A program made the position numbers and the translations under genes. Shown in pieces: positions 15,983 to 22,153 of a stretch of 64,000 nt of DNA; within the stretch, counting starts at the first letter, position 1, and each line of letters begins with the position of its first letter. The stretch is from Terriglobia bacterium. GTDB lineage: Bacteria; Acidobacteriota; Terriglobia; 20CM-2-55-15. Location of the stretch: the NCBI GenBank assembly GCA_965198225.1, contig CBDAOY010000007.1, positions 64,001 through 128,000 of the forward strand, read 5' to 3'. The notes below the pieces were generated by a model. It made no database searches and was not told the DNA's origin. It worked only from the letters and a program-made list of their open reading frames with translations.

Positions 15983-16076
15983 GCGTGCAGGTTGACTTCG
16001 CAATTGCGCGAGGTCCGGCGAGTTGGAGGAGAGCCCCTCCCGCTCGACGCCTGAACGGGCTGAAGAGGGTACAGAC

Positions 16077-16946
16077 ATGTCATCGTTCCAGAAGGTCCTG
16101 TTCCCGACCGACTTCTCGAAGGGCGCCGATAACGCCTTTCGACACGCGCTCCGCCTGGCGAACATCCAGAACGGTGAGGTGATCGTCCAGCATGTCGTGA
16201 GCAGCTACTTCGAGAAACATTCCCACTGGGCGACCCTGTTCGACATCCACGAGATGCAGAAGTACATGGACATGTACGTCGAGACCGAGATGGCTGGGGT
16301 CGTACCGGAAGAGATCAAGGGCGATCTCAAGTTCCGCAACGTGATCTCGGAAGGGAAGCCGGCGCAACAGATCGCCGAGTTGGCCGATAAGGAGCGGGTG
16401 GACGTCATCGTCATGGGGCCTACCCGGGGAGTGGTGACCGGCCCGGTGATTCGGGGAACCAACCGCCCGGTACTGGCGGTGCCTCACAACGGTAACGGCG
16501 TGGAGCCACTCCGTAAGATTTCGAAGATCCTCGTCACGACGGATTTTTCAGGACACTCGAAGAAGGTTGTCGACTATGCTTTCGAGCTGAAGAAGCTCTT
16601 CGACTGTGAGATCTACCTGCTGTATGTCGTCGAGCTTACGAATGCGATCAGGTTCGGTATCAAGCAGGGTTACTTCACTGACGCAACGGCGAAGATGAAG
16701 AAGTGGGCCGAAGATCAGCTCGAGAATCTGACGCCACGTCAATATGTCCTGGATGAGACGGTTCACCGTGTGGTCGAGGAGGGTCCGGCCGCCGATCACA
16801 TCAAGGCATTCGCAGACGCCAACGATGTCGACATGGTCGTTCTCGGTGCGCACGGGTACGGACCTGTCCAGAAGCATTTCGTCGGCAAGACGACCGACAA
16901 GGTGCTGCTGGAGCTGGACCGACCGGTGCTGACGGTCAGGATCTAG
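16077..16946 (+). CDS. Tandem-domain universal stress protein
   Basis: KVLFPTDFS and KILVTTDFS USP starts; VVLGAHG...FVGKTTDKVL...RPVLTV. Confidence 0.93.
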   Translation: MSSFQKVLFPTDFSKGADNAFRHALRLANIQNGEVIVQHVVSSYFEKHSHWATLFDIHEMQKYMDMYVETEMAGVVPEEIKGDLKFRNVISEGKPAQQIAELADKERVDVIVMGPTRGVVTGPVIRGTNRPVLAVPHNGNGVEPLRKISKILVTTDFSGHSKKVVDYAFELKKLFDCEIYLLYVVELTNAIRFGIKQGYFTDATAKMKKWAEDQLENLTPRQYVLDETVHRVVEEGPAADHIKAFADANDVDMVVLGAHGYGPVQKHFVGKTTDKVLLELDRPVLTVRI

Positions 16947-16947
16947 G

Positions 16948-16975
16948 AAAAAGCCCGCCGCAAGGCGGGCTTTTT
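16948..16975 (+). terminator. Rho-independent terminator (group IIC intron target)
   Basis: AAAAAGCCCGCC-GCAA-GGCGGGCTTTTT directly after the usp stop and 5 nt before the intron start. Confidence 0.92.
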
Positions 16976-17383
16976 GGTTGGTGCGCCAGGCATGGCGCGC
17001 AGCGCCATGAATTGGCGCTGGATAACCGGGGAGCGAAAGCGAACCGGGAAGTGACTAGGAGGTGAGAGTCCTCTGGGGGCCTTGATGACAGGAACCCTTA
17101 GCCGATGTGGCAACTGCGTCCGAGCAATCGGGGGTGGGAAGGAAGCCATAGGCAAAACTCTGGCCCGAGGCACACGAACCGCATAAGAGGCAGGCGTCAG
17201 GTGGGCGAAGAGGCCAACAGATCGGAAGCCCAATGTCATCCGGACCGGGCGTTTGTAGATGCGGCGGGTAGATGGAGTGAAAGTCACGTGCCTTACCCTG
17301 GGAGATCCGTTGTCTTGCTGGGAACAGCTAGAGTCGTCGAGAGGCGGCGCGATGGGGCGGCGGAAGTCAGCCACGGTCATAGT

Positions 17384-18254
17384 GCGTGCCTGGCAGCACG
17401 CGTTTCCGGCGGGTTAAAGTCCCGCTCGGCCCGAGGCCACGGGTCGATATCCAACAAGTGGGGGTAATGCCTCACTGGCCGGAGTGTAGGCAGGATGGCA
17501 GATGCCTCAAGGCAGAGCTGCCACCTACGGAAACTTTGGAGGGCAGGGCGCCCACCGCGAGGTGGGGTCTGAAGGGCATGAGGAGAACCACCGGGTCGTA
17601 ATCGAAGGGAGCATCCCGAGGATGAACCGGTCGGCCAAAGATGGGGAATGGTCGAGCCCGCACTATGGGGGCGAAGGCGCATTTGGTTCCACCCCATCGC
17701 ACCAAGGTGTGTGCGGGCGACACGGTGGAGAAGAGACGCGAGTGACCCAGGGAGGCCTGGTATCGTCCGGGCGGAAGGTAAGGTCGAGATGATGTGGCAC
17801 CCGCAGACGAAAGGGCGGGCAACCGAGAAGACAAACATCGACCTAGAGCCCCGCATGGATATAAGCGTAGAGCGAAATTCCGGCCGACGCGGTGTCAGGA
17901 ATCGGATCGGGGAATGGAGCCAGTACTCAGGAACGAGACGGCAAACATAAGGTCTCGGATCGTTGCTTCGAGCAGCGGCGCTGGCGGTCCAAAAGCCGTT
18001 CGTTGGAGGGGGAAGTCCCCGTACTCAGTCGTCGAATGTGCGAGCGATGCGAGGAAACGCGGAGATATCGTGAACTTGGATAGTTCCCTTAGCGAAAGAC
18101 CCAAACGCGGTACGAACGAAGCCGCCACCTGCCGCCACACAGCGAATTCCGAACGAGGAGCAACTGAGGAAAGCGGCTTGCGGGAAAACCGCACGAGCCG
18201 TTTGATTGAGCGGACGGTGGAAGGGCCGATCGGCCCGACCACTTTCGACTCTAC
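17384..18254 (+). mobile_element. ORF-less group II (IIB-like) intron nested in the ribozyme of the IIC intron
   Basis: 5' GCGTG; EBS1 ACTATG (17662-17667) pairs with CATAGT (17378-17383); domain V AAGCGGCTTGCGGGAAAACCGCACGAGCCGTTT with AGC triad; domain VI ending CGACTCTAC. Removal restores GTCATAGT-AGCCCGG...GAAGGACC. Confidence 0.88.
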
Positions 18255-18314
18255 AGCCCGGCGGAGCCGGGGTGAAGGACCACACATGGAGAAGAGACCG
18301 ACACGGAGCGTTCG

Positions 18315-19712
18315 ATGCGAAACGGAGACGCAGACAAGAGGGCTGAGAAGCCGGAACCGAACCGGAAGGATAGCGGCGGAACCGTGACAGATACGGATGA
18401 GGGGCGTCAAACTCGCACGGCACGTCACGAGCAAGTCGGGATCGAGGAGGGAATGCTACTGGAGAAGGTGCTGGAACGGGAAAACGTTCTGGCCGCATAC
18501 CGACGCGTCAAGGCCAATAGCGGGGCGGCGGGAATCGACGGGATGACCGTTGAGGACCTGATGCCGCACTGTCAGATGCACTGGACGCGAGTCCGTCAAG
18601 AACTGCTCGACGAGACGTACCGCCCCCAACCGGTGAGGAAAGTCGATATTCTGAAACCGGACGGAGGGATACGGACGCTGGGCATTCCGACCGTGATGGA
18701 CCGGATGATTCAACAGGCTCTGCTTCAGGTTCTCCAACCCCTATGGGATCGGACGTTCTCGGAAGATAGCTACGGCTACCGACCGGGACGAAGCGCCCAA
18801 AAGGCGGTGGTGCGTGCCCGGGAACACATTCGAGCCGGACATCGCTGGGTGGTGGACCTGGACATCGAGAAGTTCTTTGATCGCGTCAACCATGACGTGC
18901 TGATGGCACGCGTGGCGCGACGAATCAAAGACAAACGGGTGCTTCGATTGATTCGGCGCTATCTACAGGCCGGACTGATGGAGGGCGGGCTGGTGTCGCC
19001 CCGGGCAGAAGGGACGCCGCAAGGCGGCCCCCTCTCGCCTCTGCTGTCGAACCTGTTGCTGGATGAACTGGATCGGGAGTTGGGGAAACGTGGGCACCGC
19101 TTCGTTCGTTATGCCGACGATGTGAATGTGTACATTCGCTCCGAGGCAGCGGGTCAGCGGGTCATGGCATCGCTGGAATGTTTTCTGGACAGGAGACTCC
19201 GGCTGAAGGTGAACCGGGCCAAAAGCGCCGTGGCGCGGCCGTGGAAGCGAAAGTTCCTCGGGTACAGTTTCACGGCGCATCGCGAGGCCAAACTGAAGGT
19301 TTCGGATTCGTCGTTAAAACGACTGAAAATGAGACTTCGGGAGATCACGCGAGCCGGGCGAGGCCGAAGCCTCGCTCGCACGATCGGAACACTCATTCCC
19401 ATCATTCGGGGTTGGGTGGCTTACTATCGCTTGGCGGAGGTTCGAGGCAGCTTCGAGCGACTGGATCAGTGGTTGCGCCGCCGGCTGCGGTCGATCTTGT
19501 GGCAGCAGTGGAAGCGGAACCGAACACGATTCCGGGAACTCACTCGACGCGGTATTGCGACCGCTCGGGCTCGGACCTCGGTTTCCAACGGGCGCGGGCC
19601 TTGGTGGAATGCGGGCGCCAGCCATATGAATCAGGCTGTCCCCGCCTCTGCCTTCCGTCGCCTGGGTTTGCAATCCTTCTCCGAGGTGCATTCCCGACTT
19701 CAATCTTTATGA
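18315..19712 (+). CDS. ltrA: Group II intron reverse transcriptase/maturase (no endonuclease domain)
   Basis: AAGIDGMT, RTLGIPTVMDRMIQQA, SYGYRPGRS, VVDLDIEKFFD, GTPQGGPLSPLL, FVRYADD, IRGWVAYY. Alternative start at 18452. Confidence 0.97.
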   Translation: MRNGDADKRAEKPEPNRKDSGGTVTDTDEGRQTRTARHEQVGIEEGMLLEKVLERENVLAAYRRVKANSGAAGIDGMTVEDLMPHCQMHWTRVRQELLDETYRPQPVRKVDILKPDGGIRTLGIPTVMDRMIQQALLQVLQPLWDRTFSEDSYGYRPGRSAQKAVVRAREHIRAGHRWVVDLDIEKFFDRVNHDVLMARVARRIKDKRVLRLIRRYLQAGLMEGGLVSPRAEGTPQGGPLSPLLSNLLLDELDRELGKRGHRFVRYADDVNVYIRSEAAGQRVMASLECFLDRRLRLKVNRAKSAVARPWKRKFLGYSFTAHREAKLKVSDSSLKRLKMRLREITRAGRGRSLARTIGTLIPIIRGWVAYYRLAEVRGSFERLDQWLRRRLRSILWQQWKRNRTRFRELTRRGIATARARTSVSNGRGPWWNAGASHMNQAVPASAFRRLGLQSFSEVHSRLQSL

Positions 19713-19777
19713 ACCGCCGTATACGGAACCGTACGTACGGTGGTGTGGGAGGCGGGCGTTAAGCCCGCCTACCCGAT

Positions 19778-19862
19778 TCAGTAGTCAGTTGTCGGGATCG
19801 GGAGCTGGCACACCGCCCATTTCCTCAAACTGGCAACTGGCAACTGATAACTGACAACTGAT
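19778..19862. repeat. Heptamer-periodic palindromic repeat interrupted by the IIC intron
   Basis: tcagtag tcagttg ... aaactgg caactgg caactga taactga caactga. Joining the exons gives GTTG|TCAGTAGTCAGTTGTC, the reverse complement of the repeat at ~7690. Confidence 0.7.
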
Positions 19863-19912
19863 TTCTGATATCCTCCGCCTGATAGGGTTCTTGGTGGAGG
19901 TTCTTAGACTTC

Positions 19913-22153
19913 TTGCACGATCTAGCCCGCAGCCTTCCAGGTTATGTGTGCCTGGCACTTCTCTACGCGCTTTTTCTGCCGTGGGACAGCTCTGCCCAAG
20001 AGGCGCTCGACTCCGACATCGCGCCGATTGCCGACTATGAATCCGTCCAGAGCCAGAAGGTCTACGAGATCACCCGCGCCCGGGGTCCGATCCGTCTGGA
20101 CGGTGTGATCGACGAACCTGCCTGGGAAGGGGTCCAGGCCGAAAACGAATACTTTCAACTGGAACCGGTTCGAGGGGTGCCGGCCGACGAGTACACCGAA
20201 TTCCGAATGGTCTACGACGATGAGAACATCTATATCGCCGCGATCAATCTCCAGAACGGCCCTATCATCACCAGCAGCCTGCAACGCGATTTCAACCCGC
20301 CGGCCGATGGCGACGTCATCGCGTTCATGTTCGATACCTTCGACAACGATCGCGACGCATTCTTCTTCCAGACCAACCCGGGAGGGGCCAAGAGAGACCA
20401 GCAGACCTCCGGGGGCGTCCGCAGCACCGAGTGGGACGGCGTGTATGACGTCGCGACTCGGGTCGATGCCGCCGGCTGGTACGCGGAGTTCGCCATACCG
20501 TTCAGGACGCTCCGTTTCGACGAGACGAATCCAGAACAACAGTGGGGTTTCAATGCAATAAGGATCGCCCGGTACACCAACGAATGGATGATGTGGTCGC
20601 CGGGGCCCCGCCCGTTCAATATCTTCCACGTCTTCGTCGGCGGGACGCTGGTCGGGCTCGAGCGACTCCGCCAGGGCCGTAACCTCAAGATCGAGCCGTT
20701 TGTGGTGAGCAATTACACGCCCGATGCCGAAGACGCCTACGACCCGGATGTCGGTGTCGACGTCAAGTACGGCGTGACGTCCAGCCTCACGCTCGACCTG
20801 ACCACCAACACCGACTTCTCACAGGTCGACGCCGACACGCAACAGGTGAACCTGACACGCTTTAGCCTTTTCTTCCCCGAACAACGGGAGTTCTTTCTCG
20901 AAAACCAGGGCCTTTTCGACGTGGGTGCCGGGGAAGGAGGGGGAGGCCCCGGAGGATCGGGAACCATCGGGGGACGGGGTCGCGATGTCATTCCGTTCTT
21001 CAGCCGTCGGATCGGCTTGTCCGGCAGGGGCACGCCGCTTCCGATCGTCGCGGGGGCGAGGCTGACGGGTCGCATGGCCGGGTTCGATGTGGGCGTGATG
21101 AACATGCAGGTCGGTTCGGAAGGGGATACGCCGTCCGACAACTGGTCGGTATTGCGTTTCAAGCGCGACGTCCTTTCCAACTCCGACATCGGAACTTTCC
21201 TCTTCAACCGCGAGCAGGGAGGGGAAACGGGATACTGGAACCGTTCGGGTGGCGCGGACGTGAACCTGAGGTTCTTCCAGCGCCGTCTGACCCTAGCCGG
21301 CTTCGCGATGAAGACCTACACGCCTGGAGACGATGAGAAAAACTTTGCCGGGCAGTTCCAGACCTCCTACCGGGACGACTTTTACGATTTTCGCGGGTCG
21401 TTCATGTCTGTCCAGGAAGACTTCCGGAACGACTTTGGGTTCATCAGGCGCGAAGCGATCCGCAAGACGAATGCGTTTGGCGGCATCCGCCCGAGGCCCG
21501 ACAGCGGGCGTGGGTTGATTCGGGAGATTTTTCCGCAGTTCGAGACCAACTACGTCACGGACCAGCAGGATCGGCTCCTGACGCGCACCCATCGAGCCGG
21601 CGTCAGCATCCAATTCCGTGACGGCGACCGCTTCTCCATGAGCCGCAACATGCGTTTTGAACGGTTGGACGAGGAGTTCGGAATCCGGGGCGGCGTCAAC
21701 ATCCCTGCCGGCGACCACGCCTTCAACGACTGGGATGTTTCTTTCAGCGGATCCGGAGGCCGGAAGCTTTCGGGCGACGCGAGCCTGACGACGGGAGATT
21801 TCTGGACGGGGACCCAGCGACAGACGAGTCTGGGCTTGCGATTCCGGCAGAGCATTCATTTCACGACCGAGGTCGACTGGTCCCGGAACAAGATCGAGTT
21901 GGATGAAGGGTCGTTCACGACCGACCTGATCGGGCTGCGGTTAAACTTTGCGTTTTCGCCGCGGATGTTCTTCGAGAACTTCATCCAGTACAACACCGAC
22001 GCCAACACCGTTTCGTCGAACATCCGGTTCCGGTTCCTCCACCACCCGTTGAGCGACTTCTTCATCGTTTACAACGAGCGGCGCGGAGTCAGCGGCAACA
22101 ATGCACTCGAACGAGCCTTGATCATCAAGCTCACGAACCTGTTCAGCTTCTAG
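19913..22153 (+). CDS. CBM9-like/DUF5916 outer-membrane protein
   Basis: Signal peptide; IRLDGVIDEPAW; AEFAIPFRTLRF; NTDFSQVDAD...NLTRFSLFFPEQREFFLE; FFSRRIG; C-terminal Phe. Confidence 0.85.
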   Translation: MHDLARSLPGYVCLALLYALFLPWDSSAQEALDSDIAPIADYESVQSQKVYEITRARGPIRLDGVIDEPAWEGVQAENEYFQLEPVRGVPADEYTEFRMVYDDENIYIAAINLQNGPIITSSLQRDFNPPADGDVIAFMFDTFDNDRDAFFFQTNPGGAKRDQQTSGGVRSTEWDGVYDVATRVDAAGWYAEFAIPFRTLRFDETNPEQQWGFNAIRIARYTNEWMMWSPGPRPFNIFHVFVGGTLVGLERLRQGRNLKIEPFVVSNYTPDAEDAYDPDVGVDVKYGVTSSLTLDLTTNTDFSQVDADTQQVNLTRFSLFFPEQREFFLENQGLFDVGAGEGGGGPGGSGTIGGRGRDVIPFFSRRIGLSGRGTPLPIVAGARLTGRMAGFDVGVMNMQVGSEGDTPSDNWSVLRFKRDVLSNSDIGTFLFNREQGGETGYWNRSGGADVNLRFFQRRLTLAGFAMKTYTPGDDEKNFAGQFQTSYRDDFYDFRGSFMSVQEDFRNDFGFIRREAIRKTNAFGGIRPRPDSGRGLIREIFPQFETNYVTDQQDRLLTRTHRAGVSIQFRDGDRFSMSRNMRFERLDEEFGIRGGVNIPAGDHAFNDWDVSFSGSGGRKLSGDASLTTGDFWTGTQRQTSLGLRFRQSIHFTTEVDWSRNKIELDEGSFTTDLIGLRLNFAFSPRMFFENFIQYNTDANTVSSNIRFRFLHHPLSDFFIVYNERRGVSGNNALERALIIKLTNLFSF

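What the first reader, a model, noticed from the sequence alone, without database searches (positions are those of the whole stretch)
17384..18254. Group II twintron: an ORF-less intron inserted in the ribozyme core of a class IIC intron
Seen: the IIC intron is 871 nt too long. The extra segment has its own 5' end (GCGTG), its own domain V (AGC triad, whereas the host has CGC) and a domain VI ending in AC. Its EBS1 loop (GAGCCCGC-ACTATG-GGGGC, 17662-17667) is the exact complement of the six host bases before the junction (CATAGT). Excision restores the host's GAAGTCAGCCACGGTCATAGT-AGCCCGG...GAAGGACC domain II/III region. Known: EBS1-IBS1 pairing defines group II target sites, and nested introns are described in some cyanobacteria and archaea. 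Inference: the two introns belong to different structural classes, the outer ribozyme cannot fold until the inner one splices, and so splicing must be ordered.
Basis: partly seen in the sequence, partly recalled or inferred. Interest (0 to 1): 0.92.

Follow-up and report, generated by a model that had tools for sequence, protein, structure and literature searches.

The report
Intron-hunting group II intron inside another
A self-splicing group II intron sits precisely inside the catalytic core of another one, and it belongs to a lineage found in several bacterial phyla that mostly targets other group II introns, although splicing itself was not shown here.

Summary
Window 17384-18254 is an exact 871-nt insertion in a class IIC intron (16981-19777). 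Removing it in silico gives a 1926-nt sequence that occurs uninterrupted, at 100% identity, at two other places in the same genome.

The insert has a domain V with an AGC triad and a domain VI with a bulged A. It shares a covariation-supported six-domain fold with its relatives. Its EBS1 loop (17662-17667) pairs 6 of 6 with the preceding CATAGT.

It is an ORF-less member of a family ("X") with about 20 copies in this genome. ORF-bearing siblings encode an RT/maturase. The target is the conserved domain III internal-loop motif CAUAGU|A. Uninterrupted host copies pass Rfam's D2-D3 model (41.6 bits); the interrupted one scores 19.

X copies in this genome lie in the same position of at least six other intron families and of X itself, up to three deep. 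Relatives in at least four other bacterial groups keep the same EBS1, and most sit inside other group II introns.

Ordered splicing is plausible but not shown. The RNA contigs were uninformative, and this copy carries private indels. Twintrons are known; a lineage homing to the ribozyme core across intron classes was not found in the papers I could search.

The parts
16948..16975 (+). GC-rich hairpin plus T-run (terminator-like) at the end of the Usp gene. It is the IIC homing signal of the outer intron.
   Evidence: Sequence. Terminator-like Rfam partial hits. 8 of 8 host copies follow such a hairpin plus T-run ending TTG. The upstream ORF 16023-16946 is Usp.
16981..19777 (+). Outer (host) class IIC group II intron, family A, 2797 nt with the insert and 1926 nt without it.
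   Evidence: RF02001 at 17118-17292, 114.9 bits; RF00029 at 19712-19777, 45.3 bits. 8 copies in the genome.
16981..17383 (+). Outer intron 5' segment: D1, D2, J2/3 and the 5' strand of D3, ending in CAUAGU.
   Evidence: 100% identical in 8 of 8 copies. RF01998 alignment on the uninterrupted copy.
17378..17383 (+). IBS1 of the inner intron (CATAGT). It is the conserved 5' strand of the host D3 internal loop.
17384..18254 (+). Inner ORF-less group II intron (family X), 871 nt, 5' GCGUG ... CUAC 3'.
17389..17751 (+). Inner intron domain I.
   Evidence: Consensus fold of 11 family members, alignment columns 6-411, mapped to window coordinates.
17662..17667 (+). EBS1 (ACUAUG) in the hairpin loop at 17654-17672.
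   Evidence: Six of six Watson-Crick pairs with 17378-17383.
17752..17903 (+). Inner intron domain II.
17904..18025 (+). Inner intron domain III. Its own internal loop carries a private 6-nt insertion (GGAGCC, about 17916-17921) inside the motif that other X copies use as a self-target.
   Evidence: table 4 shows other copies lacking these 6 nt.
18037..18168 (+). Inner intron domain IV remnant. This is the site of the 1251-nt ORF segment present in the ORF-bearing siblings.
18171..18203 (+). Inner intron domain V (AGC triad, 2-nt bulge).
   Evidence: RF00029 at 36.9 bits. 13 pairs conserved in 12 sequences.
18208..18254 (+). Inner intron domain VI, with an unpaired A 7 nt from the 3' end. The intron ends AC.
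18255..19777 (+). Outer intron 3' segment: the rest of D3 (A-GCCCGG...CCGGG-GUGAAG-GACC), D4 with the ORF, D5 (CGC triad) and D6.
18315..19712 (+). Outer intron RT/maturase ORF, 465 aa, no endonuclease domain.
   Evidence: RVT_1 and GIIM. TIGR04416 at 421.7 bits. Open frame intact.

Best explanation
This is a genuine twintron made by retrohoming. An ORF-less group II intron of family X reverse-spliced, in the same orientation, into one of eight near-identical copies of a class IIC intron. The insertion point lies exactly between CAUAGU and A in the domain III internal loop.

The site is chosen by base pairing of the X EBS1 loop (ACUAUG) with the D3 motif. This motif, together with the neighbouring J2/3 sequence, is conserved in many group II introns. 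X and its relatives therefore use other group II introns, including themselves, as homing sites.

The copy has no ORF, so its mobility and probably its splicing depend on the 415-aa RT/maturase of ORF-bearing X siblings elsewhere in the genome (inferred).

Excision of X rebuilds an intact IIC ribozyme. The most likely RNA pathway is inner intron first and outer intron second. This step is inferred, not shown.
For: - Exact insertion. The empty form exists at 100% identity at two loci and at 99.84% at a third.
- Family X. All 20 5' ends start GCGTGCCTGG and all 20 3' ends end CTCTAC. The 5' flank ends TAGT in 18 of 20, and the 3' flank starts with A in 20 of 20.
- All ORF-less copies share one DIV deletion. 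Two ORF-bearing copies have an open RT/maturase frame.
- EBS1-IBS1. 28 of 28 evaluable pairs have at least 5 of 6 pairs. EBS1 ending in G goes with C at -6 in 12 of 14. EBS1 ending in U goes with G or A at -6 in 12 of 14.
- Fold. 201 consensus pairs, 61 of them with compensatory changes, across 11 members. D5/D6 are conserved. The window copy keeps 183 of 202 consensus pairs, against 190-191 in 10 sibling copies.
- Site is the D3 loop. RF01998 scores 41.6 bits in an uninterrupted copy and 19 bits when interrupted.
- Other hosts in this genome carry D1 models RF02005, RF02001 and RF01999 upstream of X on the same strand.
- Other genomes. 10 of 11 resolvable relatives have ...TAGT flanks. 7 of 11 have a host D1 hit at gathering score. 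One more has a sub-threshold D1 hit, and one has a host D5/D6 145 nt downstream.
- The host flanks are identical to other copies over 1926 nt, while X is only 92-93% identical to its nearest sibling. Its peculiarities therefore probably predate the insertion.
Against: - No splicing evidence. The 17383/18255 joint occurs in DNA as well as RNA contigs, and no 16980/19778 joint was seen.
- The inner D5/D6 hit is below Rfam's cut-off (36.9 against 40).
- The 5' end is GCGUG, not GUGYG.
- This copy has private indels: deletions of about 32+4 nt and about 10 nt, and insertions of 6, 3 and 1 nt. One lies in its own D3 loop. It has 16 broken consensus pairs against 11-12 in siblings.
- No source copy with these features is in the genome, and none was found in metagenome contigs.
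- EBS2-IBS2 could not be established for this copy.
- 2 of 11 relatives (L027, L029) and one of two G418 copies show no recognisable host intron.
- Many of the own-genome sites are copies of the same host context (about 10 distinct contexts), so they are not independent events.
Confidence: 0.88

Rival explanations
1. Dead ('zombie') twintron. The insertion is real, but this X copy no longer splices. The host copy is then either inactivated or splices with the insert left in place. There is no ordered splicing.
For: Private indels include 6 nt inside its own conserved D3 loop, and it has 16 broken consensus pairs against 11-12 in siblings. No splice-junction evidence specific to this locus was found. 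Outer splicing without inner splicing has been reported in plant mitochondria (PMC7049729, passages read). The twintron is intergenic, so nothing selects for splicing.
Against: D5, D6 with the bulged A, EBS1 (6 of 6 pairs) and 183 of 202 consensus pairs are intact. The largest deletion lies in a D1 branch that is wholly absent in relatives L030 and L031. The host flanks show zero substitutions against other copies over 1926 nt, so there has been little time for decay in place. Two open X RT/maturase frames are available in trans.
Confidence: 0.35
2. Assembly chimera. A repeat-induced misjoin placed an X copy inside an A copy.
For: Both elements are multi-copy (8 and about 20 copies). No laid contig bridges either junction by the tool's criterion of 31 letters on each side. 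The junction was not found in metagenome contigs.
Against: The insert sits at exactly the family's canonical target (CATAGT|A), with perfect EBS1 pairing and exact intron termini. A misjoin would not reproduce this. This X copy is unique in sequence (92-93% to all others). Short contigs from two RNA libraries (records 11 and 23, 55 nt, no differences) run from 17354 to 17408, across host-specific and X sequence. The assembly has only 9 contigs.
Confidence: 0.03
3. X reached this site by DNA-level recombination or gene conversion with another interrupted intron, not by reverse splicing.
For: Recombinant X copies with flanks from two different hosts exist (C5:889958-890863 and C4:150750-152235).
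Against: Both flanks here are host A and are identical to uninterrupted A copies. No other A copy carries X. The host D3 flanks differ between families, so there is no homology to drive conversion.
Confidence: 0.03

Closest known systems
Thermosynechococcus elongatus TeI3 (ORF-less) / TeI4 twintrons (Mohr et al. 2010, PMC2882425, passages read)
   Same: The ORF-less introns derive from one deletion in DIV. They have multiplied and have good EBS/IBS pairing. They are mobilised in trans by a sibling's protein and insert at a conserved site in another group II intron. EBS variants define subfamilies.
   Different: There the target lies between two start codons in DIV, outside the ribozyme core, and the hosts are close relatives. 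Here the target is the D3 internal loop of the catalytic core, and the hosts belong to several Rfam D1-D4 families, including IIC.
Methanosarcina acetivorans nested introns (Dai & Zimmerly 2003, as summarised in PMC4424553; original paper not held)
   Same: Repeated site-specific homing into other group II introns, nested arrays several deep, deletions by recombination, and no host gene affected.
   Different: By that paper's title, the homing sites lie in the ORFs of related introns. Here the site is a ribozyme motif shared across unrelated introns and bacterial phyla.
Trichodesmium erythraeum twintron (Pfreundt & Hess 2015, PMC4649490, passages read)
   Same: A bacterial twintron with the inner intron inside a ribozyme domain of the outer one.
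   Different: The inner intron lies in domain I and carries its own ORF, it is a single locus, and sequential splicing was shown experimentally. Here splicing is untested and the inner intron belongs to a multi-copy family.
Plant mitochondrial cox1i1149g2 'hypermobile' intron and zombie twintrons (Zumkeller et al. 2020, PMC7049729, passages read)
   Same: An intron that invades itself and other introns. EBS changes improve the fit to new sites.
   Different: Organellar. The self-insertion is in DIV, the inner copies no longer splice, and there is no conserved core motif as target.
Class IIC group II introns (outer intron)
   Same: 8 of 8 copies sit directly after a hairpin plus T-run. The protein is RT plus X with no endonuclease domain. 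D1-D3 is compact. The D5 triad is CGC (the association of CGC with IIC is recalled, not from a call).
   Different: None found. The outer intron looks like an ordinary IIC intron.

Membership tests
Group II intron (inner element) | 5' GUGYG and 3' AY termini | tested here: inconclusive
   The 3' end AC is met. The 5' end is GCGUG (U2 to C) in all 20 own copies and in the Terriglobia MAG. More distant relatives have GUGUG or GUGCG.
Group II intron (inner element) | Domain V (about 34 nt, AGC triad, 2-nt bulge) and domain VI with a bulged A | tested here: met
   29 pairs, with an unpaired A 7 nt from the end. RF00029 scores 36.9 bits, below its cut-off of 40.
Group II intron (inner element) | Six-domain secondary structure supported by covariation | tested here: met
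   201 pairs, 61 with both sides changed, across 11 sequences. D1, D2, D3 and D4 are delimited; the window copy keeps 183 of 202 pairs.
Group II intron (inner element) | EBS1-IBS1 pairing with the 5' exon | tested here: met
   6 of 6 Watson-Crick pairs here. At least 5 of 6 pairs in 28 of 28 evaluable element/site pairs, with covariation at -6.
Group II intron (inner element) | EBS2-IBS2 pairing | tested here: inconclusive
   The candidate loop GGGAG-N-AUCCC varies between subfamilies. AGCCA matches UGGCU of host B 5 of 5, but no match exists for the window copy or for most relatives (read by eye).
Group II intron (inner element) | Self-splicing or lariat formation | not testable with these tools
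   Only contigs of RNA libraries were available. They cannot show splicing here.
Twintron | One intron lies wholly inside another on the same strand, with the uninterrupted outer form identifiable | tested here: met
Twintron | Sequential splicing (inner before outer) | not testable with these tools
   One search was uninformative. The claim is inferred from the D3 disruption (RF01998 at 19 against 41.6 bits).
Class IIC (outer intron) | Insertion directly downstream of a terminator-like stem-loop | tested here: met
   8 of 8 copies.
Class IIC (outer intron) | RT/maturase without D/En domains | tested here: met
   Only RVT_1 and GIIM were found in 465 aa.
Trans-mobilised ORF-less intron family (T. 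elongatus type) | Single-origin ORF deletion, many copies at paired sites, and a sibling protein present | tested here: met
   The same DIV breakpoints occur in all ORF-less copies. There are two open 479-codon frames. Activity in trans was not tested.

The most novel reading that the evidence does not exclude
Family X belongs to a cross-phylum clade of endonuclease-less group II introns that mainly parasitise other group II introns. Their invariant EBS1 (CACUAUG) reads the D3 internal-loop motif (C/G/A)(A/G)UAGU|A, next to J2/3, which the ribozyme itself must conserve. Introns of several different classes, and sometimes X itself, therefore offer a homing site that the host intron cannot easily mutate away. 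This produces self-renewing nested arrays (host containing X containing X). It makes each invaded ribozyme dependent on prior removal of X, which could throttle the mobility of the host introns.
Probability: 0.55. Interest if true: 0.75.

Novelty: new variant of a known kind. Interest (0 to 1): 0.6.

Why it matters
Twintrons in bacteria and archaea are known, and so are ORF-less introns mobilised in trans. What appears to be different here is the choice of target: a catalytic-core motif (the D3 internal loop next to J2/3) shared by group II introns of different structural families.

The same EBS1 and the same kind of site are kept in relatives from Terriglobia, Desulfobacterales and another deltaproteobacterial MAG, Alphaproteobacteria and Nitrospinota; an NC10 relative's 3' flank looks alike, but its 5' end is cut.

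If this holds, it is a clean natural case of a selfish RNA element whose niche is another selfish RNA element. The target site is protected from escape mutations by the host's own need to keep its ribozyme working.

It also gives a testable system for two questions. One is ordered splicing. The other is how an intron RNP recognises a DNA site that encodes structured RNA. A natural retargeting event is available for study: EBS1 G to U, which opens self-invasion.

Tried and rejected
RNA evidence. I laid three RNA-library runs labelled sponge metagenome and one run of unstated kind that I treated as DNA. All are contigs. The 17383/18255 joint appears in all four, as expected from the empty host copies, so it says nothing about splicing. 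No 16980/19778 joint was listed. The flanks are barely covered in RNA (0 to 2.5).

Junction support in those runs. Several contigs cover 17354-17408, or end 30 nt past 18254.

Public metagenome contigs. The private deletion junction of this copy and the host/X 5' junction each gave 0 matches. This is no evidence either way.

Same-genus genomes. 0 of 3 have X. 5 of 29 other relatives have only partial matches of at most 223 nt.

Phylum scan with the exact EBS1 hairpin. 2 of 401 genomes matched, namely this one and G418. In G418, one of two copies lies in a D3-like context.

EBS2, EBS3 and intron class of X. I could not assign them. I only say that X is not IIC.

Literature. Four full-text searches and passages of PMC4424553, PMC2882425, PMC4649490, PMC7049729, PMC8919778 and PMC3552965 gave no description of a lineage homing into D3. 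For PMC12584367 I saw only the abstract and outline. Dai & Zimmerly 2003 and Simon et al. 2008 are not held. The bacterial group II intron database and all supplements could not be consulted. The lineage may therefore already be catalogued there.

I considered shifting the inner 5' end by 2 nt to obtain GUGCG, and rejected it. The empty-site sequence fixes the boundary.

Full report
**1. The observation**

The window between a tandem-Usp gene (16023-16946) and a DUF5916 gene (19913-22153) holds a group II intron at 16981-19777. At Rfam gathering thresholds it gives RF02001 (D1 region, 17118-17292, 114.9 bits) and RF00029 (domains V/VI, 19712-19777, 45.3 bits).

A permissive scan of 16900-19900 adds three hits:
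- a second RF00029 hit at 18169-18254 (36.9 bits, cut-off 40, E 6.1e-5);
- a partial RF02001 hit at 17551-17657 (24.7 bits);
- a weak RF01998 hit at 17328-17394 (19 bits, E 2.3).

**2. The insertion is exact, and the empty form exists**

The host 5' segment (16981-17383) occurs 8 times in the genome at 100% identity. I joined 16981-17383 to 18255-19777 in silico, giving 1926 nt. This matches C9:611822-613747 and C8:882283-884208 at 100% without a gap, and C7:488453-490381 at 99.84%.

The insert ends share no base with the flanks, so the boundaries 17383|17384 and 18254|18255 cannot be moved. The intron therefore begins GCGUG, not GUGCG two bases upstream.

In an uninterrupted copy, Rfam's D2-J2/3-D3 model RF01998 scores 41.6 bits (cut-off 35). 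Its consensus reads ...AGAAgUCAGCAGAgGcCAUAGUAgccgcc...ggcggcGAAGGgC. The insertion lies between CAUAGU and A, which is the 5' strand of the D3 internal loop.

**3. The outer intron is an ordinary IIC intron**

- All 8 copies lie directly after a GC-rich hairpin and T-run ending TTG.
- The ORF (465 aa) has RVT_1 and GIIM only, and passes TIGR04416.
- Domain V has CGC where the model has AGC.
- Only the window copy carries X. Four other copies have different, smaller length changes, which I did not study.

**4. The inner element is one of a family ("X")**

The 871 nt match 35 places in the genome. BLAST resolves 20 5' ends and 20 3' ends.
- All 5' ends begin GCGTGCCTGG and all 3' ends end CTCTAC.
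- The 5' flank ends TAGT in 18 of 20.
- The 3' flank begins with A in 20 of 20.

Two copies (C6:343788-345941 and C5:501714-503866), and a third that is truncated, carry a 1251-nt segment in domain IV. It holds an open frame. From an inferred TTG start it gives a 415-aa RT/maturase without an endonuclease domain.

All ORF-less copies share the same DIV breakpoints. This argues for one deletion followed by spread in trans, as described for T. elongatus (PMC2882425, passages read).

**5. X folds as a group II intron**

I aligned the window copy, an own-genome ORF-bearing copy, an own-genome X2 copy and eight relatives from other genomes. This gives a consensus of 201 pairs, 61 of them with compensatory changes. 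The delimited domains, mapped, are:
- D1: 17389-17751;
- D2: 17752-17903;
- D3: 17904-18025;
- the start of D4.

Domains V and VI (18171-18203 and 18208-18254) are conserved in 12 of 12 sequences. They have 29 pairs, 4 of them compensatory, and an unpaired A 7 nt from the 3' end.

**6. EBS1-IBS1**

The loop CACUAUG is invariant in the relatives I could read. Of 28 evaluable element/site pairs, all have at least 5 of 6 pairs. 22 have 6 of 6 counting wobbles, and 10 are all Watson-Crick, including the window copy.

Within this genome there are two subfamilies.
- EBS1 ACUAUG: the window copy, two other ORF-less copies and the two full-length ORF-bearing copies.
- EBS1 ACUAUU: the remaining copies.

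Elements ending in G have C at -6 in 12 of 14 sites. Elements ending in U have G or A at -6 in 12 of 14 sites. The own-genome sites fall into only about 10 distinct contexts, so these are not 28 independent events.

I found no convincing EBS2 partner for the window copy. One candidate loop does match host B perfectly in the U subfamily (read by eye).

**7. What X targets**

In this genome, X copies lie downstream of, and on the same strand as, D1 hits of several Rfam families:
- host A: RF02001 and RF01998 (the window);
- host B and two others: RF02005;
- another host: RF02001;
- another host: RF01999.

X copies also lie in X itself, at GGGGAAUAGU|ACUC in its own D3 loop. Arrays of host B containing X containing X occur at C6:840163-841975 and C5:62160-64012. 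Partly recombined arrays occur at three more loci. No copy of host B is uninterrupted at the site.

**8. The habit is shared across genomes**

Relatives of the X protein (53-94% identity) were found in 18 loci. The MAGs are labelled Terriglobia, Desulfobacterales, delta proteobacterium, NC10, Alphaproteobacteria, Nitrospinota and others.

In 11 loci the 5' junction could be read. L030 and L032 come from the same MAG and have identical flanks.
- The introns begin GUGUG or GUGCG. The Terriglobia MAG has GCGUG.
- They end CUCUAC or CUUUAC.
- 10 of 11 flanks end TAGT, often preceded by a GAAGUC-like J2/3 motif.
- 7 of 11 have a host D1 hit at gathering score 150-400 nt upstream, from RF02005, RF02001, RF01999 or RF02003.
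- One more has a sub-threshold hit (43.1 against 49), and one has a host D5/D6 145 nt downstream.
- L027 and L029 show no host.

The other seven loci were dropped from this count because they are fragments or cut at the 5' end.

A more distant pair of copies in another genome of the phylum (G418, about 61% nt identity) has the same EBS1. One of the two lies in a GAGAAGUCGGAUCACUUCAUAGU| context.

Some relatives have changed their own D3 loop to GAGGUA or similar. This removes the self-target.

**9. State of the window copy**

It is the most divergent X copy, at 92-93% identity to the others. It has private indels:
- deletions of about 32 and 4 nt in a D1 branch;
- a deletion of about 10 nt in D2;
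- a 6-nt insertion in its own D3 loop;
- a 3-nt insertion;
- a changed hairpin.

The D1 branch is entirely absent in L030 and L031, so it is dispensable. The copy keeps 183 of 202 consensus pairs. Ten siblings keep 190-191, and a clearly degenerate copy keeps 138.

The surrounding host sequence has no difference from other copies over 1926 nt. The X peculiarities are therefore more likely inherited from a lost or unsampled source copy than acquired in place. Gene conversion among host copies is an alternative I cannot exclude.

**10. Splicing order**

The insertion splits the host D3 internal loop, next to J2/3. The host's D2-D3 model score collapses from 41.6 to 19 bits. That makes inner-first splicing the natural expectation. 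Sequential splicing has been shown for a cyanobacterial twintron whose inner intron lies in D1 (PMC4649490, passages read).

However, an outer intron that splices without inner splicing has been reported even with a D1 insertion (PMC7049729, passages read). My only RNA data are contigs, in which the inner-excised form is indistinguishable from the empty genomic copies. I rate ordered splicing as likely but unproven.

**11. Novelty**

Reviews describe bacterial and archaeal twintrons, nested arrays and homing into other introns (PMC4424553, passages read). The twintron itself is therefore a new member of a known kind.

What I did not find in four searches and the passages read is a lineage that homes into the D3 core motif of introns from different structural families and is conserved across phyla. 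I file it as a new variant of a known kind.

Noticed in passing
G000 C6:839757-843511 (L021); also C5:60623-64394: Three-level nesting: host intron B (RF02005-type D1) contains an X copy, which contains a second X copy at its own D3 loop. No uninterrupted copy of host B exists in the genome.
   Followed up: partly
G000 C5:812868-814096, C4:150750-152235, C5:889958-890863: X copies whose 5' and 3' flanks come from different hosts, or whose outer 5' half is missing. These look like products of recombination between nested or dispersed X copies.
   Followed up: partly
G000 X copies (alignment, columns ~265-272 and ~324): The ACUAUU subfamily also differs in a second D1 loop (AGCGA to AGCCA). That loop is perfectly complementary to UGGCU, just upstream of IBS1 in host B. 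This is a possible EBS2 retargeting.
   Followed up: partly
G000 C6:839719-839805, C5:812424-812510, C5:606870-606955, C5:760125-760210: Host B begins GAGCGTTGCGCC, 24 nt upstream of my first guess. In 4 of 6 copies this lies directly after domain V of yet another intron family, inside what Rfam aligns as its domain VI. That suggests a further kind of intron-in-intron arrangement.
   Followed up: partly
G000 C9:335639-337621, C8:1093651-1095623, C7:1071712-1073691, C5:716620-718804: Four other copies of the IIC host are 47-259 nt longer than 1926 nt because of small insertions or duplications near positions 630-730 and 1420.
   Followed up: no
whole genome G000: The genome is very rich in group II introns. 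There are 31 GIIM matches and 32 listed domain V/VI matches with only 150 of 435 candidates scored. Same-genus genomes lack X (0 of 3).
   Followed up: partly
window 17384-17388 and relatives L027, L029: The 5' end GCGUG (U2 to C) is shared with a Terriglobia MAG. It is accompanied by an A-to-G change at position 17 that would keep a local pair (U2-A17 becomes C2-G17). Whether that hairpin forms is unknown.
   Followed up: no
relatives L033, L036-L040 (alignment, Xorf positions ~575-582): In several relatives the intron's own D3 loop reads GAGGUA, GCGGUA, CGGUA or AUAUUA instead of AAUAGUA. This would make them immune to self-invasion.
   Followed up: no
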